This document shows positions 6,813 through 32,000 of a DNA stretch of 32,000 nt, in pieces. A program made the position numbers and the translations under genes. The DNA is from Nostoc punctiforme PCC 73102 (GTDB lineage: Bacteria > Cyanobacteriota > Cyanobacteriia > Cyanobacteriales > Nostocaceae), in the NCBI RefSeq assembly GCF_000020025.1, contig NC_010628.1, positions 4,320,001 through 4,352,000 on the forward strand. Direction: 5' to 3'. Within the stretch, counting starts at the first letter, position 1. Each line of letters starts with the position of its first letter. The notes under the pieces were generated by a model. That model was not told the origin of the DNA and searched no databases. It saw only the letters and a program-made list of their open reading frames with translations.

Positions 6813-6876
6813 ACGACTGCTATAAAAACTTTGTTTTCCCTAAAAAAATAACTCATTAACCTCAACCTTTCGAAAT

Positions 6877-12767: not shown

Positions 12768-12818
12768 TTCTCAAATAATCGGCTTTGTTTTAAGAAGTAC
12801 TATTAGGTGTGTGGAGTG

Positions 12819-15413: not shown

Positions 15414-15424
15414 CCCAACCCTAA

Positions 15425-15517: not shown

Positions 15518-15720
15518 GCTTTTTGAACTAGATAGTTATTTCCGCTTTCCTGCACTAGTAGTCTGTCAAGGTAGTAATGAAAAGTTTGTAGCAAGCACAA
15601 AGCATGCTTAGAAACATGGACTAAAGTCCTTACTACAGAATTGTTTACTCCTCGATTCAAAGCTGACAGACTACTAACGATCTGTCACAAAAATTTTGAT
15701 AGGTAAATCAGTTTTAAATT

Positions 15721-15825
15721 TCTCTTTTCTAACTCTTAACTTCTCTGCGAGACGCTCTTGCTAGCTTGCTTTGACCTAGGAGTATGAGGTTCGTTCTCTT
15801 ATCAATCAAAATTAATCTGACAGGC
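15721..15825. repeat. Dispersed short repeat, copy 2, carrying a 38-nt internal insertion
   Basis: TTCTCTGCG (15741-15749) and GGTTCGTT (15788-15795) are separated by 38 nt here (agacgctcttgctagcttgctttgacctaggagtatga), but by only 7 nt (cctctgt) in the copy at 6759-6787. Confidence 0.6.
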
Positions 15826-15912
15826 TACTAGTAGAAAATTTCCTATCTTAGAACAATCAAAGAAGCTTTGAAATTAACTGATAGTTAATCACCGCAAATT
15901 TATAATCTAAAC

Positions 15913-17220
15913 TTGATACAAGTGCGTACTCTTATTATTGTTTGGCTTAGTCAAATAGTTTCCATCGTTGGCAGTAACATGACCGGATTTGCTTTCACTA
16001 TTTGGGTGTGGGAACTCACAGGTCAAGCTACGTCTTTAGCCTTGTTTGCTTTATTTGCACAAGTGCCGCAAATTTTTATTATTCCCATAGCTGGGGTGAT
16101 TGTAGATCGCTGGAACCGTAAATATTTAATGATGGTTGGTGACACAGTAAGCGGGCTGTTGACCATAACTGTCTTACTACTTTACATAACTCATGATTTG
16201 CAATTATGGCATTTATATTTGGCTGTAGGTGTCAAAGGAACTTTTCAGCAATTTCAAAAACTGGCATTCTCGGCATCAGTATCAATGATGGTGCCAAAGC
16301 AGCAGTACAGTCGCGCTAGCAGCATCAGTTTCCTGGCAACCTCTAGTTCTAATATCATTGCACCAGCGTTAGCAGGTGCCCTCTATGTAGTCATTGGTCT
16401 TGTTGGCATCTTAATTATTGATATCACTACTTTTGCGATCGCTTTACTTACATTGCTGCTAGTACATATACCGCAACCTAAGATTACAAAAGCGGGTACG
16501 CGTGATAGCAAAAACCTGAAGCAGGATCTCTATTTTGGCTGGCGCTATGTTGCTGTACGCCCCGGACTGCTTGCGATGCTAGTATTAGTGTTGCTCTTCG
16601 TTTTTGCCTATGAATTTGGCGAATCACTTGTTACTCCCCTAATTCTGACACGCACTGGTAATGATAGTAAAGTATTAGGTGTTATATTTTCGACAGCAGG
16701 GTTAGGTGGCATTATTGGGGCGTTGCTCGTGGGCATTAGGGGTAATTTGCAGCCCCGAATACATGCAGTGTTGCTAGGTATGGCTGGTGCTGGTTTGAGC
16801 CAAACAGTGTTTGGTCTAGGGAGAGTACCGTTAATTTGGTTTCCTGCCCAATTCTGTTCAGCTCTCAATTTTCCAATAATGGGCAGTGCCGATGACGCTA
16901 TATGGTTAAGCAAGATAAAACCTGAGTTACAGGGACGTGTTTTTGCAATGCGTTCTATGGTGATGCCGATTAGTACGGTTTTAGCAAACTTAATAGCTGG
17001 GCCACTAGCTGATGGTGTTTTTGAACCAGCAATGAAGCCTGATGGTAGTCTTGCCCCCATATTTGGTTGGATATTTGGCACAGGAGGTGGTGCAGGCATA
17101 GCACTCCTGTATGTCATTTCTTCCCTATGTATGTTAGCGATTGGCTTAGGTGGATATGCCTTTCGTGTGTTGCGTGACGTAGAAATCATCTTGCCAGATT
17201 ATGATGTCGGTGCAGAGTAG
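15913..17220 (+). CDS. MFS transporter (EntS/DHA3-like, candidate siderophore exporter), 435 aa
   Basis: About 12 predicted hydrophobic helices and the VDRWNRK loop after TM2, typical of MFS_3/EntS-like exporters. There is no ATG near the N-terminus, so the start is TTG 15913 or GTG 15922. A TATAAT hexamer sits at 15901-15906. Confidence 0.8.
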   Translation: MIQVRTLIIVWLSQIVSIVGSNMTGFAFTIWVWELTGQATSLALFALFAQVPQIFIIPIAGVIVDRWNRKYLMMVGDTVSGLLTITVLLLYITHDLQLWHLYLAVGVKGTFQQFQKLAFSASVSMMVPKQQYSRASSISFLATSSSNIIAPALAGALYVVIGLVGILIIDITTFAIALLTLLLVHIPQPKITKAGTRDSKNLKQDLYFGWRYVAVRPGLLAMLVLVLLFVFAYEFGESLVTPLILTRTGNDSKVLGVIFSTAGLGGIIGALLVGIRGNLQPRIHAVLLGMAGAGLSQTVFGLGRVPLIWFPAQFCSALNFPIMGSADDAIWLSKIKPELQGRVFAMRSMVMPISTVLANLIAGPLADGVFEPAMKPDGSLAPIFGWIFGTGGGAGIALLYVISSLCMLAIGLGGYAFRVLRDVEIILPDYDVGAE

Positions 17221-17400
17221 TCGGTGGCTGAGTATCACAGGAACTTTGAATCGTTTTCAAGAAAGTGAATATGATTACCAAGGTTCTCTAACTAATTGCC
17301 GCTAAAATGTCAGGCTATTGTCAAATTGTAGTGCATCAATATCTTTTGGTTAAGCATCATCTTTCAGGATAATAAAAACAGTTTCGCTGGAGTTTTTAAC

Positions 17401-18756
17401 ATGGCAAATATTGTATTTTATGTTAGCTTTTTACAAAACGATTTTAATAGCACTATTAAGCTGGCAAAAACACTAAAATCACTTGGACACAAAGTATTTT
17501 ATTTAGGAATGCTAGATTCAGAAGAAAAGGTTTTTAAATATGGCTTTCCATTTTTACCAATTTTAGAGAAATGGTTTCCCAAAGGATTTTACCAACAAGA
17601 AGACTATAATAGACTAAACTTTAGCGGATTAAGGTTGTCATTAGAGTGCAGAAAATACAGGAAACTTAGAAGCTCTTTAATTTATTCCTTATACAAAGGG
17701 GAAAACAGAGAAATACATAATGCAATAAAAAAAGCAGATACTGATTTACTATTGATAGGTACATCCTGCTCTTCTGAAGCTTCAATAATAGCATTTATAG
17801 CTTATGATTGCCAGATATCAACTATTTATTTAACAGATATGTTTACAGAATTACCACCAATAAACAAAATCCTGCAAGACAAAAAGAATACTTTAAATGT
17901 TCAGCTTCTGAAAAGATTTTATAATAAATTTAAAGCTGCTAGCGAAGCATTGAAAAGAAGTTTGCTTTGGTTGGTTGGAAAAAGTTTAGATGAAGATATT
18001 ATCAGAAACTTTGCAACTATTAAGAGTAAAATACCTTTAGAATTGTTAGACTTTTCTAACAATCTTCCTTTGAAATTACCACACTTGTTTTTATGCCCAG
18101 AGGAATTAGATTTTCCTAACTCTTATAGAGAAGGATGTTACTATGCTGAAGCTTCTATAGATTTGCAAAGAGAAGAGCCATCTTTTGATTGGTCAAAACT
18201 GAATAATAATCGAGTCCTAATTTATTGCTCTTTGGGAACTACAGGAGAAACCTTTGAAACTTTAGGCATAAAGAAAGTTAAACAATTTTTTCAGGATGTA
18301 ATTGATGCTGTATCTCTCAAAAAGGAATACCAATTAATCGTATCAGCAAGCGATCATATTAATGTTGAAGACTTTCACTATGTCCCTGAAAATACGATAA
18401 TCGTTAATAGGGCACCACAATTGGCACTTCTCGAAAAAGCATCTCTAGCAATCATACATGGAGGAGTACGTACTATTAAAGAATGTATATTCTTTGGAGT
18501 ACCAATGATAGTATTTCCTGTGAGTTCCGATCAACCAGAAAATGCAGAAAGAGTAGAATATCATAAATTAGGCGTAGTTGGTAATATTGAAAATACATCT
18601 GCCAATCTCATCATGGATTCCATTGAGAGAATAGAAAATGATTTTTTCTTGAAGCAGCGATTAGAAGCATGGAAAAATAAATTTAGAGAAATAGAACATT
18701 CTGAAAAGGCAACAAAATTTATATTGAATATTTTAGAGCAGAATAAATGCGTCTAA
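17401..18756 (+). CDS. GT1-family UDP-glycosyltransferase (MGT/macrolide-GT-like), 451 aa, in AT-rich islet
   Basis: C-terminal donor-binding motif AIIHGGVRTIKECIFFGVPMIVFPVSSDQPENAERV. GGAG lies about 10 nt upstream of the ATG. Confidence 0.75.
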   Translation: MANIVFYVSFLQNDFNSTIKLAKTLKSLGHKVFYLGMLDSEEKVFKYGFPFLPILEKWFPKGFYQQEDYNRLNFSGLRLSLECRKYRKLRSSLIYSLYKGENREIHNAIKKADTDLLLIGTSCSSEASIIAFIAYDCQISTIYLTDMFTELPPINKILQDKKNTLNVQLLKRFYNKFKAASEALKRSLLWLVGKSLDEDIIRNFATIKSKIPLELLDFSNNLPLKLPHLFLCPEELDFPNSYREGCYYAEASIDLQREEPSFDWSKLNNNRVLIYCSLGTTGETFETLGIKKVKQFFQDVIDAVSLKKEYQLIVSASDHINVEDFHYVPENTIIVNRAPQLALLEKASLAIIHGGVRTIKECIFFGVPMIVFPVSSDQPENAERVEYHKLGVVGNIENTSANLIMDSIERIENDFFLKQRLEAWKNKFREIEHSEKATKFILNILEQNKCV

Positions 18757-18789
18757 AACTCTTAATATATCGACAATTCATAAAATATA

Positions 18790-19773
18790 ATGGAGATGAG
18801 ATTAGAGAATATGAGTAAGGATTTAGAAGAAAGGGATTATTCAAAGGGAGCTAAATATATAGCTCAACATAAATATAGTGAAGCAATAGCTTTCTATAAG
18901 AAAAGCATTGAAACCGATCCTGACTTAATGTCTAATTATTGGTATCTATGTTTAGCACTATTGCTTCAGAAACAAGAATCAGAAGCTATGGCTATTTGGC
19001 GATCTATTCTAGAGAAAGCAGACATAGAAAAAGTTAAGAATTGGACATTAGATATAGTTGAGGTGCTAACAGCAGAAGCTATCAGATGCAAAGCAGCCTT
19101 TGACTTTGAGTCTGCCCATAGATTTTACGGGTATGCTGCTATTGCACGGGGTGAAGCCTGGAAAAAAGTGAAAGGGTATAAGTTCACAAATGATTGGTTT
19201 AGTCAAAATCTCCCAATCTGGGAAAATTATCTAATACACTTAGCTAATAAGCCTGAAATTAATATTCTAGAAATTGGTAGTTGGGAAGGCATGTCTGCGT
19301 GCTGGTTACTAGATCGCATCCTCACTCATGAATCCTCAAGAATCACGTGTATAGATACCTTTGAGGGAAGCATTGAGCACAAACTTGAATATAACGATAG
19401 TTACATAAAATCCGTTGAGGAAAAATTTGATTTCAATATCTCCCACACAGGAGTACAAGAGAAAGTAACGAAAATTATTGGTAATTCCCAAGATGTGATG
19501 CGATCGCTCCCCCTTAAAAGTTACGATATGCTTTATATTGATGGCTCTCACTTAGCAAGTGATGTCCTTATGGATGCTGTTTTAGGTTGGGGGCTTGTCA
19601 AGATCGGAGGTCTCATTGTTTTTGATGACTACGATTTTAAATTTCCCAACAGCGTAGATGCAGGGCAGGATACAAAAATCGGCATAGACGCTTTCCTGAA
19701 GGTATTTTGCAAAAAAGTCAACATTATTCATCAAGGTCATCAAGTTATAATTGAAAAGGGCGTTGTTGCGTGA
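18790..19773 (+). CDS. TPR-like N-terminal region fused to a class I SAM-dependent methyltransferase (Methyltransf_24/O-MT-like), 327 aa
   Basis: N-terminal YSEAIAFYKKSIETDPDLMSNYWYL is TPR-like. SAM-binding ILEIGSWEGMSACWLL, acidic CIDTFEG, and YIDGSH...GGLIVFDDY. The start could be one of the nearby ATGs at 18796 or 18811. Confidence 0.7.
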   Translation: MEMRLENMSKDLEERDYSKGAKYIAQHKYSEAIAFYKKSIETDPDLMSNYWYLCLALLLQKQESEAMAIWRSILEKADIEKVKNWTLDIVEVLTAEAIRCKAAFDFESAHRFYGYAAIARGEAWKKVKGYKFTNDWFSQNLPIWENYLIHLANKPEINILEIGSWEGMSACWLLDRILTHESSRITCIDTFEGSIEHKLEYNDSYIKSVEEKFDFNISHTGVQEKVTKIIGNSQDVMRSLPLKSYDMLYIDGSHLASDVLMDAVLGWGLVKIGGLIVFDDYDFKFPNSVDAGQDTKIGIDAFLKVFCKKVNIIHQGHQVIIEKGVVA

Positions 19774-22375: not shown

Positions 22376-24889
22376 ATGATGTGGTGTGGATTAAATCGAA
22401 AAATAAGGCTAGTGTTTCCGATATTTTTACTACTAGTCTTTATAGTAGTAATGGTGTCGCAAAAACTCTCCGCAAGAGAACCCCAGTTAGTACAACAAGA
22501 AAATAATTACGCGATACATACTCGACAAAATTTTAATCAATCTAGTTTTTATCCAATTGCAGAAATTCCATCTGCAAAACTTTATAAACCCATTGGTAAC
22601 TGGGTAGGAAGGTTAATCTTACCAACAAAACAGCAATTACAAGATGGTTTAGATTGGGTATGGATGGAAGTGCAATATGCACCACCCACAGCACAAAATT
22701 TGCTAGGAAAGATTGTGCGTCTGGAGTGGAAAAATAATGAAGATTTGCTTGCTAAAGTTAAAGCTGTAACACGAGATATAAATTTCACTTCAGAAGTCAT
22801 TAAAAGTCAAGAACAAGGGAATATTCATCCTTTTCGACTAAATGCAGTTAGACAGGTAGGTATTTTACGTTCATTGGCTGGTGCAAATCCTCAAGATGAT
22901 GTAATTGTTGCTTTAAATTCAAATACAATCATCAATGCAGATAGAGAAAAATCTATTTTGCAAATTGAACATGAACCTGTTTTGGCAACTGGTAGATTTT
23001 ATGGATTAGTAAAAATAATTAACCCGATTAGATTTAATCTTTTATCTACAAAATATCAGCAAGATAGCTATTATTTTTCTGTCCAGCACTATAATTCTAA
23101 CTCAAATAAATTTGATGGCATTCAAGAAACTATTCGTATTCCCCAACAAGTAATAGATACGAGAAACTTTGCGCCTTCAAGTTCGCAGGAAATCGAAAAA
23201 TCACCTGCGGGTGAGGATGGTTGGTATATTTATGGTGCTAAAGATGCAAATGCCGTATTTACAGTAAGTGCCCTTGCACCTCGTTCTCTGTTTCAAATTC
23301 AACCCCGTCAAATTATTACTGGTGAGGAATTAGGGCTCAATTTTATCAAAGAGGTAAATTGGCGAAATAGCGAGAGAGAAAAAGGTAAATTCAATACTGT
23401 CTTGTTAAAACCTGTAGAAACATCTATATCAAAATGGCAACAAGGCGATAAAGGGATTTTACTACACCTATTCGGTGGAATTGGCGGACGTAAAGCTGAA
23501 CCAATCGGAGTACCTAATACTATTACCGGACATTTTGCTTTTGGAATTGCAGAAGTTGTCCGCGATGAGTTTACTAACGAATTACGCTTTGAGACTAAAT
23601 ACCATCAAATTTATGCCCATAACCCTGATGGAATTATTGCCGGAACGCATACATGGGCTGATTATATGGGTAATTTACAACGTGGCTGGCTAGCAACACG
23701 TCCAGTATCAGATATTCTGATTAAATTCGACCCTGTAACGCAAGATTATGATTTTGATGGGATTAAACTTTCGCCTTTAGAGGAATTCCAGCAACAATTA
23801 CAGGTAACGATGGCACGTTATCGCGTTGGCGATGGTACTGGTGGCGCAATGGTATCACCTGGTACCTCATGCGTCCAAGACTCAAGCCAAGCACTTTATG
23901 CTGCGATAATGGCAATTAAAAACCAAGTTGCTACAACTTCTCAAATTCAAACTTGGGTACGCACTAATCCAAATCATCCGCAAACATTACGCTTTCAGCA
24001 GCTAGTTGAATTAGATAAATCTTTAGAACAACAATTAGCACCCTTGGGGATAGTTCGTGCTGATTGGCAGAGTCAAGCAGGCGTACTCGCAGGCACGGGA
24101 ATAGGAAAAACGACGAAACCATTTCAAGATGGTAGTATTTGGGCTGGTTTGACAACGTGGCGAACAATCATGCCAAGACAAGTACATGATGATCTCGCCG
24201 CGATATTTCTCAAACATGGTGCAACTTTGCAAGTATTGCGAACCAATCAAGTAGGTGGTTGGCAATCCAGTATTACACCCCTTGCACCAACAGTCTTTTT
24301 AGGGCAAATGAAGATTCCTTTTACTAATATTGCACCACTTCCAATTATTTTAAATCGTTTTCTAACGTCGTTAGTAATTCCTACACGGCAAGATTGGTTA
24401 ATTCTGGTTTTACTGCTGATAATCTATAGTATTATCGCTCTACCTTATGGCTGGAGATTAGGATTTTTACAGCTCCAACTTTGGTCTGCAAATTGGATCG
24501 ATCAATGCTTATTAACGTTGCGTTGTTTATTTGCACCTGCGATTATCGAAGAACTCATTTTTCGCGTTATCTTGCTTCCTCATCCTAGTGAAATCACCAA
24601 TTGGTTACGATGGAGCTTATGGGCAATAGTTAGTTTAGTATTATTTGTTTTGTATCATCCATTGAATGCTAAAACATTTTTTAAAGCTGGAAATCCCACA
24701 TTCTTTAATCGGGGTTTTCTTACTTTAACTTTATGGTTAGGAATTATCTGTACTGTTGCATATACCTTAACAGGATCTTTCTGGGTGATAGTTTTAATCC
24801 ACTGGGTTGTAGTAGTAGTTTGGTTAATTGTTTTTGGAGGAATAACAAAATTAGATAAGAATCAAAAAATTAATAAAGCTCAAACGTAA
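22376..24889 (+). CDS. Large membrane protein: N-terminal anchor, about 640-aa uncharacterised extracytoplasmic region, C-terminal CPBP (CAAX/Abi) intramembrane protease domain; 837 aa
   Basis: The C-terminal polytopic segment carries the CPBP motifs PAIIEELIFRVILLP (EExxxR), LFVLYHPLN (FxxxH) and VLIHWVVVV (H). N-terminal hydrophobic segment LVFPIFLLLVFIVVMV. Confidence 0.7.
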   Translation: MMWCGLNRKIRLVFPIFLLLVFIVVMVSQKLSAREPQLVQQENNYAIHTRQNFNQSSFYPIAEIPSAKLYKPIGNWVGRLILPTKQQLQDGLDWVWMEVQYAPPTAQNLLGKIVRLEWKNNEDLLAKVKAVTRDINFTSEVIKSQEQGNIHPFRLNAVRQVGILRSLAGANPQDDVIVALNSNTIINADREKSILQIEHEPVLATGRFYGLVKIINPIRFNLLSTKYQQDSYYFSVQHYNSNSNKFDGIQETIRIPQQVIDTRNFAPSSSQEIEKSPAGEDGWYIYGAKDANAVFTVSALAPRSLFQIQPRQIITGEELGLNFIKEVNWRNSEREKGKFNTVLLKPVETSISKWQQGDKGILLHLFGGIGGRKAEPIGVPNTITGHFAFGIAEVVRDEFTNELRFETKYHQIYAHNPDGIIAGTHTWADYMGNLQRGWLATRPVSDILIKFDPVTQDYDFDGIKLSPLEEFQQQLQVTMARYRVGDGTGGAMVSPGTSCVQDSSQALYAAIMAIKNQVATTSQIQTWVRTNPNHPQTLRFQQLVELDKSLEQQLAPLGIVRADWQSQAGVLAGTGIGKTTKPFQDGSIWAGLTTWRTIMPRQVHDDLAAIFLKHGATLQVLRTNQVGGWQSSITPLAPTVFLGQMKIPFTNIAPLPIILNRFLTSLVIPTRQDWLILVLLLIIYSIIALPYGWRLGFLQLQLWSANWIDQCLLTLRCLFAPAIIEELIFRVILLPHPSEITNWLRWSLWAIVSLVLFVLYHPLNAKTFFKAGNPTFFNRGFLTLTLWLGIICTVAYTLTGSFWVIVLIHWVVVVVWLIVFGGITKLDKNQKINKAQT

Positions 24890-24902
24890 TACACCGTAGC
24901 TT

Positions 24903-24934
24903 AAAAAGGGGGAACTAGAATTAAAGTCCCCTTT
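24903..24934 (+). terminator. Weak hairpin after the 837-aa gene (possible terminator)
   Basis: AAAAGGGG (24903-24910) pairs with CCCCTTTT (24927-24934). The loop is 16 nt and the T-run is inside the stem, so it is not canonical. Confidence 0.25.
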
Positions 24935-24944
24935 TATCGATGGA

Positions 24945-25003
24945 TTTAGAAGGCGATCTAAAACTTTTGATACTGACAGGAGGGCTTTTCAAACATCCTT
25001 TAA
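24945..25003. repeat. Degenerate mini-copy (two facing terminal repeats) of the MITE family seen at 26382-26568
   Basis: GCTTTTCAAACATCCTTTAAG (24983-25003) matches ACTTTTCAAACAACCTCTTAG (26544-26564) at 17 of 21 positions. A weaker facing arm, TTAGAAGGCGATCTAAAACTTTT, lies at 24945-24967. Confidence 0.45.
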
Positions 25004-25204
25004 GATCCAATACGGTTCAGTCAACGTCAAAACTCTTCAACTGTATAGGTTGGGGAGCCGCTGCGCCCTTGCGGTTTCCCGACTTGTACCCCTACGGGGA
25101 AGCAAGCTACGCTCTTAGTGTTCTCGCACGGTAGCAAGTGGCGTTTGAAGAATGAAACCCAACAAAGCCCCAAGAGCGCAATTACCATAGAAAGCAAACC
25201 CTCT

Positions 25205-25234
25205 AAAAACAAAAAAAACCCGCTACAGCGGGTT
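25205..25234 (-). terminator. Rho-independent terminator for the small minus-strand ORF
   Basis: The minus strand reads AACCCGC-TGTA-GCGGGTT followed by TTTTTTTTGTTT, about 30 nt after the stop at 25267. Confidence 0.7.
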
Positions 25235-25266
25235 ACACAACAAACTAAGAACAATGAAAACTTGAT

Positions 25267-25422
25267 TTAGCTGGAATATCTCATTTCAGCTTCAAGTTGA
25301 CGAATCAGTTGTTCGTCGCCCTTTGCTCTGGCTACTTGCAAGCGATGCTCTAGGCTTTTTTGAATATTCTCTCTGTGGACTTCTTGTGCTTTTCTTGCAC
25401 TTTGCAGTCTACCTTGATTCAT
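25267..25422 (-). CDS. Small helical hypothetical protein, 51 aa (below the ORF-track cutoff)
   Basis: MNQGRLQSARKAQEVHRENIQKSLEHRLQVARAKGDEQLIRQLEAEMRYSS. AAAGAGG lies about 9 nt upstream of the ATG, and a canonical terminator follows downstream. Confidence 0.55.
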   Translation of the reverse strand: MNQGRLQSARKAQEVHRENIQKSLEHRLQVARAKGDEQLIRQLEAEMRYSS

Positions 25423-25532
25423 AATGATTACCTCTTTAATTTTTCACTTTATGTCTTCTATTCATAACATAGCACACATTTTGTAGCTGTTGCTACAGAA
25501 TTTTATAACTTAATGTAGATTTTAACAAAAAG

Positions 25533-26357
25533 ATGTCTGAGAAGCAGATAGATCAACAACGACTTATGACTTTTCTAAGCGATTTTGGCGATCGCGATAT
25601 CTATATAGGCGTAATGAAGGGAGTCATAGCCCAAGCCAATCCCAGGCTGAGGGTGATAGACTTAACGCACCAAATTCCACCGCAAGACATCGCCGCAGCC
25701 AGATTTTGCCTGATGAATGCTTATCCATATTTCCCAGTTGGGACAGTGCATCTGGCAGTAGTAGATCCAGGGGTGGGAAGTAAGCGACGAGCGATCGCAG
25801 TAGAATTTGCTCAAGGGTTTCTAGTCGGCCCAGATAATGGTATCTTTAGCGGCGTACTTAGTCAAAGTCCGGCGATGTCTACGACGGGCTACGCCTACGC
25901 AGCCGTTGAACTTACAAATCTTAACTATTGGCGAACTCCTCAACCAAGCAACACTTTTCACGGTAGAGATATTTTTGCACCAGTGGCAGCTAATCTTGCT
26001 AGTGGTGTCCCCTTGAAACAGCTAGGACAAGAAATTGATCCAGCAAGTTTAGTCAAACTGGATATAGGCGAGTGTAAGCAGACAAGCAATGGTGTAGTGG
26101 GTTGCATTCAATATATTGACCACTTTGGCAACCTAGTGAGCAACATTCCAGCGAGTTATGTACAAGGCAAAACTTGGTATGTGCAAGCTGCTGGGTTGAA
26201 TATACCCGGCTGTGAAACTTACAGTGATGTCAAGGTGGGAGAGATACTAGCTTTAGTTGGCAGTCACGGCTGGGTAGAAATTGCCATTAATAGCGGCAAT
26301 GCTCACTCCCGGTTGCATTTAGATTGGCAAGCACCGCTTCAAGTTGTGCTAACGTGA
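25533..26357 (+). CDS. SAM hydrolase / S-adenosyl-L-methionine hydroxide adenosyltransferase family (DUF62, fluorinase/chlorinase-like), 274 aa
   Basis: LSDFGDRDIYIGVMKGVI, VVDPGVGS, VGPDNGIFS and NTFHGRDIFAPVAANL motifs. Confidence 0.85.
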   Translation: MSEKQIDQQRLMTFLSDFGDRDIYIGVMKGVIAQANPRLRVIDLTHQIPPQDIAAARFCLMNAYPYFPVGTVHLAVVDPGVGSKRRAIAVEFAQGFLVGPDNGIFSGVLSQSPAMSTTGYAYAAVELTNLNYWRTPQPSNTFHGRDIFAPVAANLASGVPLKQLGQEIDPASLVKLDIGECKQTSNGVVGCIQYIDHFGNLVSNIPASYVQGKTWYVQAAGLNIPGCETYSDVKVGEILALVGSHGWVEIAINSGNAHSRLHLDWQAPLQVVLT

Positions 26358-26381
26358 ACCAATAACACTGACTAAAACTCT

Positions 26382-26568
26382 TCACTTAGAGGGTGTTTGA
26401 AAAGTCTAATTTATTACTCACCGGGCGACTGGAAGTCGCGGCTAAACAGTCAAAACCCACCTCCGTGGCTTAAAATCATTGATTTTCTCTTAGTCCACGA
26501 AGGTGGACTTGGTTTGTGTAGTAGCGAATTCTATTCGCCTAAAACTTTTCAAACAACCTCTTAGGTGA
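26382..26568. mobile_element. MITE-like non-autonomous element between convergent genes
   Basis: Terminal inverted repeats: TCACTTAGAGGGTGTTTGAAAAGT (26382-26405) and ACTTTTCAAACAACCTCTTAGGTGA (26544-26568). Internal hairpins: GCGAC-TGGAA-GTCGC, CCACCTCCGTGG / CCACGAAGGTGG, and GCGAAT-TCT-ATTCGC. No coding capacity. Confidence 0.65.
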
Positions 26569-26633
26569 GTTACAAAACCTAGCAATCGCTGATAATATCA
26601 AATATTATAAAGAGTTTCTACCCCCTGCCCCCT

Positions 26634-28622
26634 TCACATCCACCCCCCAACTTCCGCATCAGTTAAAGGTTTCTCTAACTTGCTATATTCCGTCTGAGCA
26701 GCCCGCAATACGTGTTTCATCTGCACTGCTTCCCCGGCATCGGCGGCGAGGAAAGCTGCATTTAAGGCTATGTTACGGATGTTACCCCCAGCGACATTTA
26801 GCCGTGCTAGTTGCAGGGCATCTAAGTCTGCGGTTGGGGTGTCGGCGGGAAAGACGCGCCGCCAAATCTCGGCTCGTTGTGTTGTATCGGGGAAGGGGAA
26901 TTGCACCACGAAGCGAATTCGGCGCAGAAAAGCTGTATCAATTGCACTTTTTAAGTTCGTAGTTAGGACTGCTAAACCTGGGTAGCTTTCCATGCGTTGC
27001 AACAGATAGCTAACTTCAATATTGGCATAGCGATCGCGCGCATCTTTAACTTCACTACGTTTGCCAAATAAAGCATCAGCTTCATCAAATAACAAAATCA
27101 CCCCGCCTTGTTCAGCAGCATCAAATACCCGGCGCAAATTCTTCTCTGTTTCGCCAATATATTTGCTAACTACCGATGATAGATCGATCCGATAAAGGTC
27201 GAGGCGCAATTTATGGGCGAGTACTTCTGCTCCCAAGGTTTTACCAGTGCCGCTAGCACCTGCGAATAAGGCACTAATTCCCAATCCTCTTGCACTCTTG
27301 CCACCAAAACCCCAATTGTTATATACAATACTGCGTTGACGCACATGAGCCGCAATTTCCCGGAGAACTTGTTTCTGTGCCTCTGGCAATACCAAGTCTT
27401 CCCAATCACCAGATGGCTCAATCCTTTGGGCGAGTTCATCCAAGCGCGGACGTGCTTGGACACGGCAGGCATCCCATAAAATGCTAGTGATATCGTTGTC
27501 TGGTTTTTGTGCTAACTGTCCTGCGGCTTCTGCACAAGCAGCCCGGATGGTTGCGGCACTTAGGTTAAACTGATCCACCAGGGTTTTAACTTGCCCGTTC
27601 ATTTGTGATGCCATTGAACCTAGGGCATCTTGCCAAACTGTACCTTGTTCTTTGCTAGTTGGTTGATGTACGTCAAAATTAACTACCAGGCGTTGTCCTA
27701 GTCCAATCCGTTCTCGGCTTGTAACTATTAAAAAGCCCTTGGTGCGTTCGATGAAACGTGCGATCGCATTTAGCCGCGCCATATCATTATTATCTAGTTC
27801 GTTGCAGTCTATGAGTAACGCACACTTACTTAAAATCGTCTCGCGAGTCCATAGGCGAATGAGATTATCTAACTCACTAGGTACTAAGGGAATCAGTTGT
27901 GCAGGCATTACCCACAAACTTAAACCCTGGAGTTGACAAATGGCCGCGGCAATGGCGCGTTTGCTAGTAGTTTCGCTACTAGATAGCTGCACGATTGGTA
28001 AGCTATTAATTTTGTCAGCTTGCGACCAAACTGCTGCTACTCGCTCTGCTAAATCTTGGTGTGACGGGACTAGATCGCTAACCTCTGGTAATGGTTCAAT
28101 GATGCCAGCTAATCGTTCGTCAAGATATTGAATGCCCGTGAGATAATGTAAAATTCGTTCGTCAATTCTGACGGGACTGAGAGTCAAGGCATGACCATCA
28201 CCAATTTGAATTAACCGCCAATGACGTAAGGGAGCATTTGGAGCGATCGCATCCCAGTGGACATTAGGTAAAGCGGACAGAGCTAAACTTAGAGTTGGGT
28301 AAGCTCGTTGTAAATCTCCGTGTGTTATGGCACACAATTTAGCAAAATCTCCATTCAACTCCATACCTGCACACAACAACAACAAATCACGTTCAAAGGA
28401 TGAGAGACTAAATATTTTGCATACTCTCTCCAATGCTGATGGCGCAGGCATTGCAGCAGCCGCTTCCTGTAAAGCTTGCTGTAAATTCTCTTGATTTTTC
28501 TCTACAGATTGATTCTGCTCTTTTGCTGTGTGATTTTCTAAAATCCCACGCACTAAGGCAAGGGCTGCTGATAGATAGCGGTAGTTTGCCTCATCCCAAT
28601 TGCGATTTGTTGTAGCATTCAT
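26634..28622 (-). CDS. AAA+ ATPase of the contractile-injection-system accessory type (Afp15/Pvc15/Cis15-like), 662 aa
   Basis: C-terminal AAA module: Walker A FAGASGTGKTLGAEVLA, Walker B VILLFDEADALFGKR, LTTNLKSAIDTAFLRRIRFVVQFPFP. The N-terminal IFSLSSFERDLLLLCAGMELNGDF segment is characteristic of this subfamily, by recollection. The start overlaps the upstream stop (ATGA at 28619-28622). Confidence 0.8.
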   Translation of the reverse strand: MNATTNRNWDEANYRYLSAALALVRGILENHTAKEQNQSVEKNQENLQQALQEAAAAMPAPSALERVCKIFSLSSFERDLLLLCAGMELNGDFAKLCAITHGDLQRAYPTLSLALSALPNVHWDAIAPNAPLRHWRLIQIGDGHALTLSPVRIDERILHYLTGIQYLDERLAGIIEPLPEVSDLVPSHQDLAERVAAVWSQADKINSLPIVQLSSSETTSKRAIAAAICQLQGLSLWVMPAQLIPLVPSELDNLIRLWTRETILSKCALLIDCNELDNNDMARLNAIARFIERTKGFLIVTSRERIGLGQRLVVNFDVHQPTSKEQGTVWQDALGSMASQMNGQVKTLVDQFNLSAATIRAACAEAAGQLAQKPDNDITSILWDACRVQARPRLDELAQRIEPSGDWEDLVLPEAQKQVLREIAAHVRQRSIVYNNWGFGGKSARGLGISALFAGASGTGKTLGAEVLAHKLRLDLYRIDLSSVVSKYIGETEKNLRRVFDAAEQGGVILLFDEADALFGKRSEVKDARDRYANIEVSYLLQRMESYPGLAVLTTNLKSAIDTAFLRRIRFVVQFPFPDTTQRAEIWRRVFPADTPTADLDALQLARLNVAGGNIRNIALNAAFLAADAGEAVQMKHVLRAAQTEYSKLEKPLTDAEVGGWM

Positions 28623-29893
28623 AAGATTGTCACCTGTGGCGAATCATAAGCTCCAGACTGATTCTTCTTGTGCAGTGGGCTTTCTGCCCCATCTACTTGC
28701 ACCCGAACAATATAAGTCCCTGGTTTTACATGTTTGACAGGAATAGTAATTGCATCGGTGTCTTCAGTGCGTGGTGCAACCAAGAAAGAGTAAGCTACCG
28801 GGCTATTAACTGATACTTCATTGAGTCGCAAAACTACTCGCTGTGCCTTACCAACTTTGGGCTGGAATTTAACGGTAATTTCTGCTGTGCGTAAATTGTC
28901 ACCGCTATTTTCCACTTGAGCGACAAATGCTGTAATTGTTGGATGGATGACAAAAGCTGCAACGTTTGATTCAAATACATAATCTGTTTGTCCTGCATTG
29001 CCCATTGTTAGATGTACAACTTGGATACCTTGCACACTTGCGTATAAATCTGATGGGATTAACAGGCTAATTTGTGTTTCTTTAACATCATGAGGTACTA
29101 GTAAAGTCTCCCTATGACTCAAACGGATTCGGGTAATCTCACCGCGTAAACGTTTACCACGAATTACTAATGTTGTGCCCGTAACAATCGTTTGATCGGT
29201 CTTTGTCGGTGCCATAACTTGCTCTATAATCGGTTGAGACAAGGGCATGATGTAGACTTCAGAATTTTCAGGTTTGCTACTCTCAATCAATACCATTGAT
29301 GCCAGATAGGTAGCTGAAGGTCGATAGTGTGTTTGTAACGCAGACCATAATTTAGAAGTTTCTTCCATGTTAAAAAACTCTGGAGTCAGTTTAATCTGAC
29401 CAATTTGTTCAGCTAAATCAGGTACAGATACACTTGCTACAGCTTGCGAAAAAGCACTTGAGGTATTGGTTGTAGAGGCATTTATCAGAGTATTCTCAAT
29501 AATATCCGATGTGATGGCTGGTGTTTTGTGTAATAAATGCATTGTATAGCCCAATAAAAGCTCCGCCTGAAAATCTTTGGCTCCATACGCTGTTAGTAAG
29601 TAATGGAGGTCAAGAGCTAGTGGGGGGCTCTGAGAGGATGCGTTTCCATTTATACGTGAATGCCTACTGCGAAATTCCTGAGATACCCAATCGACATTGC
29701 GGTTCTGTGTTACTTGATAAAGAAAGAGGTTGATTTGAGCCCGCTCGTCAGCTTCAACTGAAATTCGATCGGGCGGTAGGGCAGTTACAATCACATCACC
29801 AACACTAGCAGCGATCGGATCGCTGACTAAGCCATTTTCCAGCAAGACTTTTAGTACTGCTGTCACGGCGGCTATAGAGAGTACATTACTCAT
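28619..29893 (-). CDS. DUF4255 (Pvc16/Afp16/Cis16 N-terminal domain) protein with a long beta-rich C-terminal extension, 424 aa
   Basis: MSNVLSIAAVTAVLKVLLENGL, INLFLYQVTQNRN and LALDLHYLLTAYG are the motifs I associate with DUF4255. The C-terminal half reads as Ig/TIG-like beta segments (TLVIRGKRLRGEITRIRL; TAEITVKFQPKVGKAQRVVLRL; GTYIVRVQVDG). Confidence 0.75.
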   Translation of the reverse strand: MSNVLSIAAVTAVLKVLLENGLVSDPIAASVGDVIVTALPPDRISVEADERAQINLFLYQVTQNRNVDWVSQEFRSRHSRINGNASSQSPPLALDLHYLLTAYGAKDFQAELLLGYTMHLLHKTPAITSDIIENTLINASTTNTSSAFSQAVASVSVPDLAEQIGQIKLTPEFFNMEETSKLWSALQTHYRPSATYLASMVLIESSKPENSEVYIMPLSQPIIEQVMAPTKTDQTIVTGTTLVIRGKRLRGEITRIRLSHRETLLVPHDVKETQISLLIPSDLYASVQGIQVVHLTMGNAGQTDYVFESNVAAFVIHPTITAFVAQVENSGDNLRTAEITVKFQPKVGKAQRVVLRLNEVSVNSPVAYSFLVAPRTEDTDAITIPVKHVKPGTYIVRVQVDGAESPLHKKNQSGAYDSPQVTIL

Positions 29894-30290
29894 CCTCGTT
29901 CCTCATGGCAATAGCACATCTTAATCATGTACGCCAGAGTACATTGACAGAATATATTTTGCAAAACTTTAAATATTCTGTAACAGAGACTATCCGCATA
30001 GCATACGAAGTATCAGCACTAATGAAGCTAAAGACCTCGTATAATTTGCGTTAACTTTATATCAGGAACCAATTTAAAGTACCATAGGGCTTAATTTTAA
30101 ACATTTTATCAAATTGCTAACATTATTTTAAGTTAGTAATATGTTAAGCTGAGTATAATCAGATAAAGGCTAAGTAATATATATTACTAAATATTCATCT
30201 AAGTTACCAAGTAAGCAAAATATTTGTAATACTAGTAGTATATCTGAGCTAAAGTCAAAACCTTAAAGTTACTAGAATGGGTTCCCCCAG

Positions 30291-32000
30291 ATGAAATCCC
30301 CACCTCCTTCAAATTCTTGGATTGGTCGCTTGGTAGGTGATAACGAGCGATATCGTTTAGACAAACGGTTAGGCGGGGGTGGCATGGGAGATGTCTTCCT
30401 GGCAACGGACACCCGTGTGGGTCAACAGGTAGCGTTGAAGTTGCTCAAAGATACGCTGGTGGCATCACAAGAAATGAGAAAGCGTTTTGAGCGTGAGGTA
30501 GCAGTTTGTGCTGCTTTGCAAAGTGACCACATAGTTAAAATTAGTGATTGTGGATTCACTTCGGAAGGGTTTCCATTTTATGTAATGGAATATTTACGCG
30601 GGCAAACGCTCAGACAATTACTGCTGCGCGAGAAGCGGCTATCTGTTGAGCGGGCGGTAAAAATTATGGCGCAAGTTTGCAAAGGTTTACAGCTTGCCCA
30701 TCAAGGAGTTACTCTCCAACGGGAAGGCGGAAAAAGCACTGAGCATATTCAGGTAGTTCATCGTGACCTGAAACCAGATAATATATTTTTAGTACCTACA
30801 GATTTGGGTGAGTGGGTAAAGGTTTTGGATTTTGGTGTTGCCAAAATTCGGAGTGAATCTTCAGAAAATGCCAATATTACCAATATCACCAGTACTTTTA
30901 TTGGGACATTTCGTTATGCACCCCCTGAGCAAATCCAAAGCGATAAAAACCTGGATGCAAGGGGTGATATTTACAGTTTAGGAATTATCCTTTATGAAAT
31001 GCTGAGTGCTGCCGATCCCTTTGGAATCAGCATTAAGGGTAGTCATGTCAGCGAGGCTTCTTGGGTATTAGCTCATGCTTATGAACCACCGAAGCCACTG
31101 CGATCGCAGCCAGGTTGTGAGCATTATTCCACAGAATTGGAAGCAGTGGTGATGAAATGCCTCCACAAGAACCCAGCGAACCGATTTGCAACGGTAGAAG
31201 AATTGAATCAAGCTTTGCAAGCTGCTGCCAAATCTGTCACAAACACTATTAATTTACCCGGAAAAGCTATCGGGCAATCACAACCTTCCTATAATCAAGG
31301 TTCAAACCACGAAACTATTCCCAGACAGTCAAACGACGACACCGTTTACCGTCCTCCATCTGCATATAATCAAGGTTCAAACCACGAAACTGTTTCCAGA
31401 CAATCAAACGACGACACTGTTCTCCGTCCCCCATCTGCATACAATCAAGGTTCAAATCACGAAACTGTTCCCAGACAATCGAACGACGACACCGTTCTCC
31501 GTCCCCCATCTGCACATAATCAAGGTTCAAATCACGAAACTATTCCCAGACAATTTAACCCGATTGAGCAAAACCAATCTGAGGAACCACTCCCTCCCCT
31601 TCAGCCTAAATACAACCAAGGTTCAAATAACGAAACAGTTCCGAGGCAGTTTAATCCAGTTGAGCAAAGTCCACAGAGTCCTGTGAATAATCCCAACCCC
31701 AGCAAACCGGACGTGACCTTGTATCAACCGCGACCTGCGGCTAATCAAGGCGGACAACAAGTGCCACCAGATAAGACCTTGTATCAACCGAGACCTGGAG
31801 CTAATCAAGGCGGACAACAAGCGCCACCAGATAAGACATTATATCAACCGCGACCTGGGGCTAATCAAGGCAGACAACAAGTGCCACCAGATAAAACATT
31901 GTTTCAACCGCGACCTGCGGCTAATCAAGGCGGACAACCAGTGCCACCAGATAAGACATTGTTTCAACCGCGACCTGCATCCAATCAAGGCAGACCACAA
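30291..32000 (+). CDS. Hanks-type Ser/Thr protein kinase with a repeat-built P/Q/N-rich C-terminal tail (3' end beyond window)
   Basis: GGGGMGDVFLA (Gly loop), VALKLL (Lys), VVHRDLKPDNIFL, LDFGVAK, GTFRYAPPEQ. The frame stays open from the ATG at 30291 to the window end (570 codons). It is absent from the ORF track, presumably because it lacks a stop. Confidence 0.9.
   Translation, partial: MKSPPPSNSWIGRLVGDNERYRLDKRLGGGGMGDVFLATDTRVGQQVALKLLKDTLVASQEMRKRFEREVAVCAALQSDHIVKISDCGFTSEGFPFYVMEYLRGQTLRQLLLREKRLSVERAVKIMAQVCKGLQLAHQGVTLQREGGKSTEHIQVVHRDLKPDNIFLVPTDLGEWVKVLDFGVAKIRSESSENANITNITSTFIGTFRYAPPEQIQSDKNLDARGDIYSLGIILYEMLSAADPFGISIKGSHVSEASWVLAHAYEPPKPLRSQPGCEHYSTELEAVVMKCLHKNPANRFATVEELNQALQAAAKSVTNTINLPGKAIGQSQPSYNQGSNHETIPRQSNDDTVYRPPSAYNQGSNHETVSRQSNDDTVLRPPSAYNQGSNHETVPRQSNDDTVLRPPSAHNQGSNHETIPRQFNPIEQNQSEEPLPPLQPKYNQGSNNETVPRQFNPVEQSPQSPVNNPNPSKPDVTLYQPRPAANQGGQQVPPDKTLYQPRPGANQGGQQAPPDKTLYQPRPGANQGRQQVPPDKTLFQPRPAANQGGQPVPPDKTLFQPRPASNQGRPQ
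31290..31560 (+). repeat. 75-bp (25-codon) in-frame tandem repeat, about 3.5 copies
   Basis: Units start at 31290, 31365, 31440 and 31515 and encode YNQGSNHET(I/V)(P/S)RQSNDDTV(Y/L)RPPSA. A diverged partial copy (YNQGSNNETVPRQFNP) lies near 31610. Confidence 0.9.
31716..32000 (+). repeat. 60-bp (20-codon) in-frame tandem repeat, at least 4.7 copies, continuing off the window
   Basis: Units start at 31716, 31776, 31836, 31896 and 31956 and encode TL(Y/F)QPRP(A/G)ANQG(G/R)Q(Q/P)(V/A)PPDK. Confidence 0.9.

What the first reader, a model, noticed from the sequence alone, without database searches (positions are those of the whole stretch)
26634..29893. Orphan DUF4255 + AAA+ ATPase pair (Cis16/Cis15-like) with no contractile-injection structural genes nearby, and a double-length DUF4255 protein
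To my knowledge, DUF4255 proteins and this ATPase subfamily are signature accessory components of extracellular or cytoplasmic contractile injection systems (Afp16 tail cap/terminator and Afp15 ATPase). A thylakoid-anchored CIS has been described in Anabaena. Here the two genes stand alone and overlap by ATGA (28619-28622). Upstream is a 397-bp AT-rich region and a divergent Ser/Thr kinase. Immediately downstream is a MITE-like element and a convergent SAM hydrolase. No sheath, tube, spike or baseplate gene occurs anywhere in the 32 kb. The DUF4255 protein is also 424 aa. The family motifs sit in roughly the first 200 residues, and the remainder reads as two beta-sandwich-like segments not needed for a simple cap. 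There are three readings. The pair may be a trans-encoded assembly or loading module for a CIS elsewhere. It may be the stump of an operon truncated at the MITE. Or it may be a repurposed two-gene system with a function unrelated to a tail. The third option would be new.
Basis: partly seen in the sequence, partly recalled or inferred. Interest (0 to 1): 0.7.

Follow-up and report, generated by a model that had tools for sequence, protein, structure and literature searches.

The report
Detached cap-and-ATPase module of a split injection system
The two genes are real and stand alone in this window, but they are most likely the separately encoded cap-like protein and assembly/loading ATPase of a phage-tail-like injection system whose other genes lie elsewhere in the Nostoc punctiforme genome, so this looks like a split gene cluster rather than a new kind of system.

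Summary
Window 28619-29893(-) encodes a 424-aa Pvc16_N/DUF4255 protein. Window 26634-28622(-) encodes a 662-aa Pvc15-like AAA+ ATPase. The two overlap by ATGA, and no contractile-injection-system (CIS) structural gene lies in the 32 kb.

The pair is orphan only locally.
- The ~420-450-aa DUF4255 form is the norm of a large family. In Acidobacteriota, Deltaproteobacteria, Bacteroidales and others it sits with the same ATPase inside complete CIS operons.
- In Nostocales the pair always carries a divergent Ser/Thr kinase, forming a triad. In some genera the triad lies in the middle of a CIS locus. In Nostoc proper it is detached.
- At least 24 strains with a triad (nearly all detached) also carry that system's sheath-tube or baseplate module elsewhere.
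- In a close relative (96% identity) the whole 41.7-kb structural region has no ATPase of its own.
- N. punctiforme PCC 73102 has this system at Npun_F1091-F1118, published as a "prophage". It also has a second, complete CIS with its own afp15/afp16.
- Both window genes are under purifying selection (dN/dS 0.09-0.22).

Verdict: a trans-encoded module of a split CIS. It is a new member of a known kind and of modest interest.

The parts
28619..29893 (-). Long DUF4255 (Cis16/Afp16-family) protein, 424 aa. The N-terminal alpha/beta cap domain is about aa 1-207 (window 29273-29893). A low-confidence linker spans aa 208-213. Two Ig/FN3-like beta-sandwich domains span aa ~214-424 (window 28622-29254).
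   Evidence: PF14065 E=9e-43. AF2 model mean pLDDT 87.9. Foldseek: the N-domain matches the Anabaena CIS cap 7b5i_AA (TM 0.63 on the target) and the Streptomyces CIS cap 9gts_0A. The C-terminal half matches tandem Ig/FN3 pairs. dN/dS is 0.095 for the N half and 0.22 for the C half.
26634..28622 (-). Pvc15/Afp15-type AAA+ ATPase, 662 aa. It has an N-terminal winged-helix domain (aa 30-173), a degenerate D1 (aa ~180-400, SSSETTSKR / LLIDCNE in place of the Walker motifs) and an active D2 (Walker A GASGTGKT at 455, Walker B VILLFDEAD at 508).
   Evidence: PF22977 E=1e-20 and PF00004 E=2e-23. Motifs. The N + dead D1 + active D2 ('GTGK', 'DEAD') layout is the one described for Pvc15 (PMC11495950). 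Orthologs at 49-57% identity sit inside CIS operons of other phyla. dN/dS is 0.09 overall and 0.034 in the AAA part.
28619..28622 (-). ATGA stop/start overlap coupling the two genes.
   Evidence: Read directly from the sequence. The genes abut or overlap in most of the 80 related loci.
29894..30290 (.). 397-bp AT-rich (31% GC) divergent intergenic region between the pair and the kinase gene. It presumably holds both promoters.
   Evidence: Composition. The consensus promoter scan was not above shuffles. No Rfam match.
30291..32000 (+). Divergent Ser/Thr protein kinase, third member of the conserved Nostocales triad. It is cut off by the window end. The kinase domain (HRDLKPDN, DFG) is followed by 75-bp and 60-bp in-frame tandem repeats. 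Full-length orthologs end in a hydrophobic stretch that looks like a transmembrane helix (read by eye, no TM prediction run).
   Evidence: Translation. Ortholog Pkinase E=6e-44. Cluster c2 lies immediately upstream and divergent in nearly all Nostocales loci (56 loci). Repeats.
26385..26564 (.). MITE-like element with 21-nt terminal inverted repeats, downstream of the ATPase. It is a neighbour, not part of the system.
   Evidence: Copies of the repeat occur in several Nostoc loci. Short-read contigs of this strain break at or just past the end of the ATPase gene, next to this element.

Best explanation
The pair, together with the divergent Ser/Thr kinase, is a detached module of a contractile injection system whose structural genes lie elsewhere in the N. 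punctiforme chromosome. I call that system CIS-2. It is the Npun_F1091-F1118 region, published as a putative prophage.

CIS-2 is encoded in three modules:
- A: short cap (Pvc16_N + CarboxypepD_reg), sheath, two tube proteins, small proteins and an FHA protein.
- B: DUF4157 effector, tube initiators, spike, PAAR, gp25, Baseplate_J, Tail_P2_I and DUF4159.
- C: kinase, long DUF4255 and ATPase. This is the window.

Inferred mechanism:
- The ATPase forms a hexamer. Like Pvc15/Afp15, it uses ATP hydrolysis in its D2 ring to assist particle assembly and to feed effectors into the tube.
- The long DUF4255 protein forms a hexameric ring at the distal end of the tube and sheath through its N-terminal cap domain. 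It may act alone or in layers with the short cap of module A.
- Its two Ig-like domains decorate or stabilise the end of the particle.
- The kinase, with the FHA proteins of module A, probably gates the process by phosphorylation.

Shown: homology, domain architecture, synteny across phyla, co-occurrence with modules A and B, absence of another ATPase in A and B, and purifying selection.

Inferred: every biochemical step, and that module C serves CIS-2 rather than the other CIS in this genome.
For: 1. Family and fold. The Pvc15 architecture is described in PMC11495950.
2. The long DUF4255 is immediately followed by the orthologous ATPase in about 70 of 80 loci from six or more phyla.
3. In non-cyanobacterial loci the pair lies inside full CIS operons. 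The order is sigma-54 activator, sheath, gp19 tube, T4_baseplate-like protein, DUF4255L, ATPase, DUF4157 effector, CIS_tube and Phage_base_V spike.
4. In Nostoc FACHB-152 the triad sits between module A and module B (L055). In Anabaena azotica module A lies directly upstream of it (L049). In Nostoc XA010 and P10160 module B genes lie just downstream (L047, L048). In A. subtropica the ATPase lies about 6 kb from the DUF4255 gene, next to module B genes (L050).
5. An ATPase tree places embedded and isolated loci in one cyanobacterial clade, with embedded forms branching first.
6. 24 named strains or MAGs with a triad (nearly all detached) also carry the 553-aa sheath or the 732-aa Baseplate_J of this system. 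In two of them I fetched the sheath module of the same assembly directly: on the same 211-kb contig, about 70 kb from the triad, in Nostoc sp. P2164 (L022 and L087), and on a different contig in Aulosira ZfuVER01 (L045 and L089).
7. In MAG Nostoc sp. P8256 (DUF4255L 96% identical to the window) loci L091 and L093 cover 41.7 kb holding modules B and A and their regulators. tblastn with the window ATPase finds no hit better than E=5 there. The triad is on another contig.
8. PCC 73102 itself: the published qPCR primers for Npun_F1112 'phage tail sheath' translate to YFARPN and MNGGGR. These are positions 60 and 85 of the 553-aa sheath. The paper's layout is structural genes F1091-R1102 and F1111-F1116 around 'recombination and regulation' genes. 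That matches B, then XisH/XisI and a GerE two-component system, then A.
9. dN/dS is 0.09-0.22.
Against: - I could not read the PCC 73102 chromosome outside the window. Absence of an ATPase inside Npun_F1091-F1118 is therefore inferred from relatives and from the paper's description.
- CIS-2 already has a short DUF4255 cap that is only 19% identical to the long one. The structural role of the long protein in cyanobacteria is therefore unclear.
- Several lineages carry a 212-215-aa version lacking the Ig domains.
- PCC 73102 has another complete CIS with its own afp15 and afp16. The triad could in principle serve that one too.
- The ATPase is deleted or truncated in three Nostoc genomes while the DUF4255 gene stays intact (L030, L032, L042). 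The two genes are therefore not always kept together.
- There are no expression or protein data for the window genes.
Confidence: 0.75

Rival explanations
1. Repurposed, CIS-independent system. In Nostoc the kinase, long DUF4255 protein and ATPase have taken on a function unrelated to any tail-like particle. One example would be a phospho-regulated unfoldase with an Ig-decorated adaptor.
For: - The triad is physically separate from all CIS genes in every Nostoc sensu stricto locus.
- It is tightly conserved with its own divergent kinase.
- It is under purifying selection.
- CIS-2 has its own short cap.
Against: - Orthologs are integral parts of CIS operons in other phyla and in several Nostocales.
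- Every triad-bearing strain I could check also has CIS-2 modules (24 strains).
- CIS-2 modules lack any other Pvc15-like ATPase, a component present in more than 85% of eCIS loci (PMC6899500).
- No triad-only genome was found, but absence of CIS-2 could not be tested in any genome with these tools.
Confidence: 0.08
2. Decaying remnant. The pair is the stump of an operon cut off at the MITE, or a relic of a lost CIS that no longer functions.
For: - A MITE-like element lies directly downstream.
- The ATPase has been deleted or truncated in three Nostoc genomes (L030, L032, L042).
Against: - Both ORFs are intact, with Walker A and B motifs preserved.
- Median dN/dS is 0.16 for the DUF4255 gene and 0.09 for the ATPase across about 45-52 orthologs.
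- The operon ends after the ATPase in all Nostoc relatives, whatever lies downstream.
- The structural genes are not lost. They are present elsewhere.
Confidence: 0.05
3. The triad serves the other CIS of this genome (Npun_R1398-F1417), or both systems. It could act as an alternative cap and second ATPase that changes particle length, cargo or localisation.
For: - PCC 73102 encodes that complete CIS (Geller 2021 supplementary data).
- Caps made of two proteins exist, for example Anabaena Cis16A and Cis16B (PMC8894136).
Against: - That locus already has afp15 (Npun_R1398), afp16 (Npun_F1400) and a CarboxypepD_reg protein.
- The triad's evolutionary partners in contiguous loci are the CIS-2-type genes: the 553-aa sheath, the 732-aa Baseplate_J and DUF4159.
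- The triad co-occurs with CIS-2 in strains where nothing is known about a CIS-1-type locus.
Confidence: 0.1

Closest known systems
Afp16/Pvc16/Cis16 cap (tail terminator) proteins of extracellular and cytoplasmic CIS (Pfam PF14065). Solved examples are the Anabaena Cis16A/B cap 7B5I and the Streptomyces CIS cap 9GTS.
   Same: - Significant PF14065 match.
- The predicted N-domain fold matches solved caps.
- Long-form orthologs occupy the cap position next to the ATPase in CIS operons.
   Different: - The protein is 424 aa, with a C-terminal tandem of Ig/FN3-like domains.
- It is encoded away from the sheath and tube genes.
- The cognate system also has a second, short DUF4255 + CarboxypepD_reg cap that is only 19% identical.
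- Its position on the particle is unknown.
Afp15/Pvc15 AAA+ ATPase (eCIS assembly and effector-loading ATPase)
   Same: - Winged-helix-like N domain, catalytically degenerate D1, and active D2 with GTGK and DEAD motifs.
- Translationally coupled to the cap gene.
- Orthologs lie inside CIS operons next to DUF4157 effectors.
   Different: - Encoded in trans to the structural genes and paired with a Ser/Thr kinase.
- No direct sequence comparison with Pvc15 itself was possible here, because no Pvc15 sequence or structure was available to the tools.
eCIS 'split loci' (Chen et al. 2019, PMC6899500), for example the T6SS-iv of Amoebophilus asiaticus
   Same: One system's genes are distributed over separate genomic sites while the machine remains functional.
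   Different: - Here the piece split off is the cap-like protein, ATPase and kinase module, not the tube and baseplate halves.
- In some Nostoc genomes modules A and B are themselves dispersed (L087 against L092).
- The screen that defined split loci was applied only to genomes with no contiguous locus. A case like this, in a genome with another complete CIS, would have been missed.
T6SS threonine-phosphorylation pathway (PpkA kinase, Fha1, with the ClpV ATPase). Recalled from my own knowledge.
   Same: A eukaryote-like Ser/Thr kinase and FHA-domain proteins are genetically tied to a contractile machine and its AAA+ ATPase.
   Different: - Different ATPase family: classic AAA rather than the ClpB-like ClpV.
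- No phosphatase was identified.
- No phosphorylation evidence exists. This is an analogy only.

Membership tests
Pvc16_N / DUF4255 cap (Afp16/Pvc16/Cis16) family | Significant match to PF14065 above the curated threshold | tested here: met
   146.5 bits against a cutoff of 27, E=9e-43, aa 9-210.
Pvc16_N / DUF4255 cap (Afp16/Pvc16/Cis16) family | Fold of the N-domain like solved CIS cap proteins | tested here: met
   AF2 model with pLDDT 87.9. Foldseek matches 7b5i_AA (Anabaena cap, target TM 0.63, E=3e-6) and 9gts_0A (Streptomyces cap, target TM 0.58).
Pvc16_N / DUF4255 cap (Afp16/Pvc16/Cis16) family | Encoded within a CIS gene cluster | tested here: inconclusive
   Not met in the window. Met for orthologs in other phyla and in several Nostocales. 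The cognate cluster is elsewhere in the genome.
Pvc16_N / DUF4255 cap (Afp16/Pvc16/Cis16) family | Forms the hexameric ring terminating tube and sheath | not testable with these tools
   Needs particle purification with cryo-EM and mass spectrometry, or multimer modelling.
Afp15/Pvc15-type eCIS AAA+ ATPase | N domain + degenerate D1 + active classic-AAA D2 (GTGK Walker A, DEAD Walker B) | tested here: met
   PF22977 and PF00004. GASGTGKT at 455, VILLFDEAD at 508, and D1 lacking the motifs. The architecture is as described for Pvc15. The closest solved relatives are the p97/Cdc48 D2 domains.
Afp15/Pvc15-type eCIS AAA+ ATPase | Genetic linkage to the cap gene and CIS structural genes | tested here: met
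   Adjacent to the DUF4255 gene in about 70 of 80 loci. Inside CIS operons in Acidobacteriota, Deltaproteobacteria, Bacteroidales, Gemmatimonadota and Verrucomicrobiota.
Afp15/Pvc15-type eCIS AAA+ ATPase | Required for particle assembly or effector loading | not testable with these tools
   Needs genetics and biochemistry.
Split-locus eCIS (Chen et al. 2019) | The remaining core genes (sheath, tube, spike, gp25, Baseplate_J) are present elsewhere in the same genome | tested here: met
   For PCC 73102: the primers for Npun_F1112 translate to peptides of the 553-aa sheath, and the locus description matches. For relatives the test was direct.
Split-locus eCIS (Chen et al. 2019) | The distant structural locus lacks its own copy of the detached component (ATPase) | tested here: met
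   No tblastn hit of the ATPase with E<5 in 41.7 kb covering CIS-2 of the 96%-identical relative, nor in L087, L089 or L092. This was not checked on the PCC 73102 sequence itself.
IetA/IteA anti-phage ATPase (PADLOC, NCBIfam) | Score above the family cutoff and a partner IetS protease | tested here: not met
   NCBIfam IteA scores 104.8 bits against a cutoff of 510. The PADLOC IetA hit covers only the generic AAA part. No IetS-like gene is adjacent.
T6SS-like threonine phosphorylation control (PpkA/Fha) | Ser/Thr kinase and FHA protein genetically linked to the machine, and phosphorylation-dependent assembly | tested here: inconclusive
   Linkage is present: the kinase is in the triad, and FHA proteins and a CHASE2 kinase are in module A. 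Phosphorylation is untestable here.

The most novel reading that the evidence does not exclude
In Nostoc proper, the detached kinase, long DUF4255 and ATPase triad no longer serves a tail-like particle. It would work as an autonomous, phosphorylation-controlled AAA+ machine with an Ig-decorated hexameric adaptor. A less radical version is that it is a checkpoint that gates assembly or cargo loading of the dispersed CIS through Ser/Thr phosphorylation of FHA partners, as the PpkA/Fha1 pathway does for type VI secretion.
Probability: 0.08. Interest if true: 0.7.

Novelty: new member of a known kind. Interest (0 to 1): 0.3.

Why it matters
The finding turns an apparent orphan into a bookkeeping point. 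CIS catalogues that require gene linkage will score this Nostoc system as lacking its ATPase and will miss the detached module.

It also points to three things worth a specialist's attention:
- The dark-induced "prophage" Npun_F1091-F1118 of the model strain N. punctiforme is most likely a second contractile injection system.
- This cyanobacterial CIS lineage carries two unrelated DUF4255 proteins.
- It is surrounded by Ser/Thr kinases and FHA proteins, which suggests post-translational control of a non-T6SS contractile machine.

None of this is a new kind of system. It does give clear gene targets for people studying cyanobacterial CIS and programmed cell death.

Tried and rejected
- Exact-protein lookup of the DUF4255 protein gave only short Logan contigs of the same strain, with no wider context.
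- A sequence search of PDB with the DUF4255 protein gave only a marginal hit, 9r9n_B at E=0.17. The ATPase hits only generic p97/Cdc48 D2 domains.
- PADLOC, NCBIfam and PHROGs gave nothing for the DUF4255 protein. The ATPase's IetA/IteA hits are far below family cutoffs, so a defence-system reading was rejected.
- Rfam found no RNA family in 24800-32000. Promoter and terminator consensus scans were not above shuffles.
- Supplements of the 2026 receptor-binding-domain catalogue do not mention N. punctiforme. Geller's stored, truncated tables do not list several triad-bearing Nostoc strains, which is inconclusive. The Chen 2019 supplements are not held.
- The idea that the pair is the missing ATPase of the Anabaena-type thylakoid-anchored CIS was considered, because that cluster has no cis15. 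It was set aside. The triad's syntenic partners are a different CIS type. No PCC 7120 ortholog appeared among the 80 best genome hits, which is weak evidence.
- I could not obtain locus tags for the window genes. I therefore could not look them up in the published diel co-expression modules.


Full report
**Observation.**

The window is from Nostoc punctiforme. The DUF4255 protein is 100% identical to an NCBI N. punctiforme protein found on an 8.23-Mb contig.

- ORF 28619-29893(-) is 424 aa and matches Pfam Pvc16_N/DUF4255 with E=9e-43 over aa 9-210.
- ORF 26634-28622(-) is 662 aa and carries a winged-helix domain PF22977 (aa 30-173) and an AAA domain (aa 452-576).
- The two overlap by ATGA.
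- Upstream lies a 397-bp region of 31% GC. Beyond it a divergent Ser/Thr kinase runs off the window.
- Downstream lie a 180-bp element with 21-nt terminal inverted repeats and a convergent SAM hydroxide adenosyltransferase.
- None of the other 15 large non-overlapping ORFs in the 32 kb belongs to a sheath, tube, spike or baseplate family.

**The proteins.**

An AlphaFold2 model built on 50 homologs has mean pLDDT 87.9.
- It shows an alpha/beta N-domain (aa 1-205) and a disordered linker (aa 208-213).
- Two beta-sandwich domains follow.
- Foldseek matches the N-domain to the solved caps of the Anabaena CIS (7b5i_AA) and the Streptomyces CIS (9gts_0A).
- It matches the C-terminal half to tandem Ig/FN3 pairs.

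The ATPase has an intact Walker A (GASGTGKT) and Walker B (VILLFDEAD) in its second nucleotide-binding domain. Its first domain is degenerate. This is the N + dead D1 + active D2 layout described for Pvc15 (PMC11495950). Defence-system and phage libraries add nothing specific.

**The long DUF4255 form is a family norm.**

A search of 1.84 billion representative proteins found 737 clusters at E<1e-30. Almost all of the best 150 are full-length matches of about 400-550 aa.

I kept 80 loci with 10-kb flanks. They come from Cyanobacteria, Acidobacteriota, Verrucomicrobiota, Deltaproteobacteria, Bacteroidales, Gemmatimonadota and others. In about 70 of them the long DUF4255 gene is immediately followed by an ortholog of the window ATPase, at 49-98% identity.

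**Context outside cyanobacteria.**

I called ORFs and clustered them. I named the recurring clusters with Pfam. The pair sits inside complete CIS operons. The order is:
- sigma-54 activator, sheath, gp19 tube, a T4_baseplate-like protein and an unknown protein;
- long DUF4255, then the ATPase;
- a small protein, a DUF4157 effector, CIS_tube and a Phage_base_V spike.

A profile of the long form's N-domain found no second DUF4255 gene in these loci. The long protein is therefore the only DUF4255 cap-family protein detected in these operons, and the ATPase is their Afp15.

**Context in Nostocales.**

Nearly every locus shows a triad: a divergent Ser/Thr kinase, the long DUF4255 gene and the ATPase.

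In some genera the triad lies within a CIS locus.
- In Nostoc FACHB-152 (L055) it lies between a sheath-tube block and a baseplate block.
- The sheath-tube block has a short Pvc16_N + CarboxypepD_reg cap, a 553-aa sheath, two tubes and an FHA protein.
- The baseplate block has DUF4159, Tail_P2_I, Baseplate_J and gp25.
- In Anabaena azotica (L049) the sheath-tube block lies directly upstream of the triad.
- In Nostoc XA010 and P10160 (L047, L048) baseplate genes lie just downstream.
- In A. subtropica (L050) the ATPase lies about 6 kb from the DUF4255 gene, next to baseplate genes.

In Nostoc proper (37 loci at 83-97% identity) and in Tolypothrix, Aulosira and Scytonema, the triad stands alone among varying housekeeping genes. 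Those include an ATP-grasp enzyme, an SDR, MgtE, the SAM hydrolase and AspRS.

A neighbour-joining tree of the ATPases puts all cyanobacterial copies in one clade. Embedded and isolated loci are interleaved, and embedded ones branch first. Detachment therefore looks derived.

**Where the rest of the system is.**

The 553-aa sheath has orthologs at 80-98% identity across Nostocales. Its clusters, together with those of the 732-aa Baseplate_J, include 24 named strains or MAGs that also carry a triad, nearly all of them detached. Among them are Nostoc sp. ATCC 53789 (DUF4255L 97% identical to the window) and N. punctiforme NIES-2108.

In Nostoc sp. P2164 the sheath module is on the same 211-kb contig as the triad, about 70 kb away.

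MAG Nostoc sp. P8256 has a DUF4255L 96% identical to the window's. Two overlapping loci cover 41.7 kb of one contig there. Their gene order is:
- the baseplate module: DUF4157 effector, gp19-like protein, a 1111-aa protein, CIS_tube, spike, PAAR, gp25, Baseplate_J, Tail_P2_I and DUF4159;
- XisH/XisI, a PIN protein, an FHA protein and a GerE two-component system;
- the sheath-tube module, with a second FHA protein and a CHASE2 kinase.

tblastn with the window ATPase finds no hit better than E=5 in this region or in the other module loci. The triad of that genome is on a different contig. The structural locus therefore has no Afp15-type ATPase of its own.

**N. punctiforme PCC 73102 itself.**

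Geller et al. list a complete eCIS at 1.70 Mb. It has its own afp15 (Npun_R1398) and afp16 (Npun_F1400). That alone would leave the window pair unexplained.

A diel transcriptome study (bioRxiv 10.1101/2024.09.03.611090; mBio 2025, PMC12691664) describes a dark-induced "putative prophage", Npun_F1091-F1118, at 1.30-1.34 Mb. Its structural genes are F1091-R1102 and F1111-F1116. They flank "recombination and regulation" genes F1103-R1110.

The paper's qPCR primers for Npun_F1112 ("phage tail sheath") translate to YFARPN and MNGGGR. These are positions 60 and 85 of the 553-aa sheath. The described layout matches the relative's order: baseplate module, XisHI and GerE genes, sheath module.

PCC 73102 therefore has this second system, and the window supplies its missing ATPase in trans. 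I could not read that region of the chromosome directly, so this last step rests on relatives and on the paper.

**Selection.**

Against about 45-52 Nostocales orthologs, median dN/dS is:
- 0.095 for the DUF4255 N half and 0.22 for its Ig half;
- 0.09 for the ATPase overall and 0.034 for its AAA part.

The genes are maintained. The operon ends after the ATPase in all Nostoc relatives, so the MITE did not truncate it.

**Open points.**

- The cognate system also has a short DUF4255 cap only 19% identical to the long one. Which protein caps what is unknown.
- Some lineages carry a 212-215-aa version of the long protein without the Ig domains.
- Three Nostoc genomes have lost or truncated the ATPase while keeping the DUF4255 gene.
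- Split loci are already a recognised eCIS arrangement (PMC6899500).

**Verdict.**

This is a trans-encoded cap-like protein, ATPase and kinase module of a dispersed CIS. It is a new member of a known kind, and the repurposed-system reading is unsupported.

Noticed in passing
N. punctiforme chromosome 1,303,703-1,340,837 (outside the window); relative loci L091 and L093: The dark-induced 'putative prophage' Npun_F1091-F1118 of the mBio 2025 diel study looks like a contractile injection system. The equivalent 41.7 kb in a close relative encodes sheath, tubes, spike, PAAR, gp25, Baseplate_J, a DUF4157 effector and caps. None of its called genes has a capsid, portal or terminase Pfam hit.
   Followed up: partly
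window 30291-32000; L087 14033-18368; L093 3943-4590 and 14142-18466: This cyanobacterial CIS type is surrounded by Ser/Thr signalling genes. The triad carries a kinase whose orthologs end in a hydrophobic, probably membrane-spanning, stretch. The sheath module carries two FHA proteins, a CHASE2 Ser/Thr kinase and a GerE two-component pair. This recalls the PpkA/Fha control of type VI secretion. The CIS papers I read do not mention it.
   Followed up: partly
window 26385-26564 and 24984-25004: A MITE-like 180-bp element has 21-nt inverted repeats (CTTAGAGGGTGTTTGAAAAGT). A further repeat copy lies in the next intergenic region, and copies occur in other Nostoc loci. Short-read assemblies of this strain break at or just past the end of the ATPase gene, next to this element.
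   Followed up: partly
window 31290-31554 and 31715-32000: The kinase's C-terminal region holds two in-frame tandem repeat arrays. One has a 75-bp unit in 3.5 copies and the other a 60-bp unit in 4.8 or more copies. They encode Pro/Gln/Asn-rich repeats.
   Followed up: no
L030 11272-11550; L032 11275-12274; L042 downstream of 11269: In three Nostoc genomes the ATPase is almost wholly deleted, truncated to 315 aa, or replaced by another ORF. The long DUF4255 gene stays intact at 84-87% identity.
   Followed up: no
L064, L067, L074, L075, L079, L081, L083: Stigonema, Nostoc linckia FACHB-104, Heteroscytonema and Rivularia carry a 212-215-aa version of the same DUF4255 lineage. It is 69-76% identical to aa 1-209 and lacks the Ig tandem. 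In four of the seven loci (L067, L075, L081, L083) the ATPase lies several kb away on the other strand, and DUF4157 genes lie next to the short DUF4255 gene.
   Followed up: no
Anabaena PCC 7120 all3313-all3327 (literature): The thylakoid-anchored CIS cluster of Anabaena has no cis15 ATPase at all (Weiss 2022 Supplementary Table 1; Geller supplementary data). No ortholog of the window pair from PCC 7120 appeared among the best 80 genome hits.
   Followed up: partly
window 5-10545 and 11628-19773: The rest of the window holds a lipopeptide-type NRPS cluster. It has a fatty-acyl-AMP-ligase-like starter, a C-A-T module, two TauD dioxygenases and glycosyltransferases. Next to it are PepSY, a TonB-dependent receptor and MFS genes.
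   Followed up: no
P0549 versus locus L055: Nostoc sp. FACHB-152 appears to carry two copies of the 732-aa Baseplate_J at about 70% identity. This suggests two CIS of this type in one genome.
   Followed up: no
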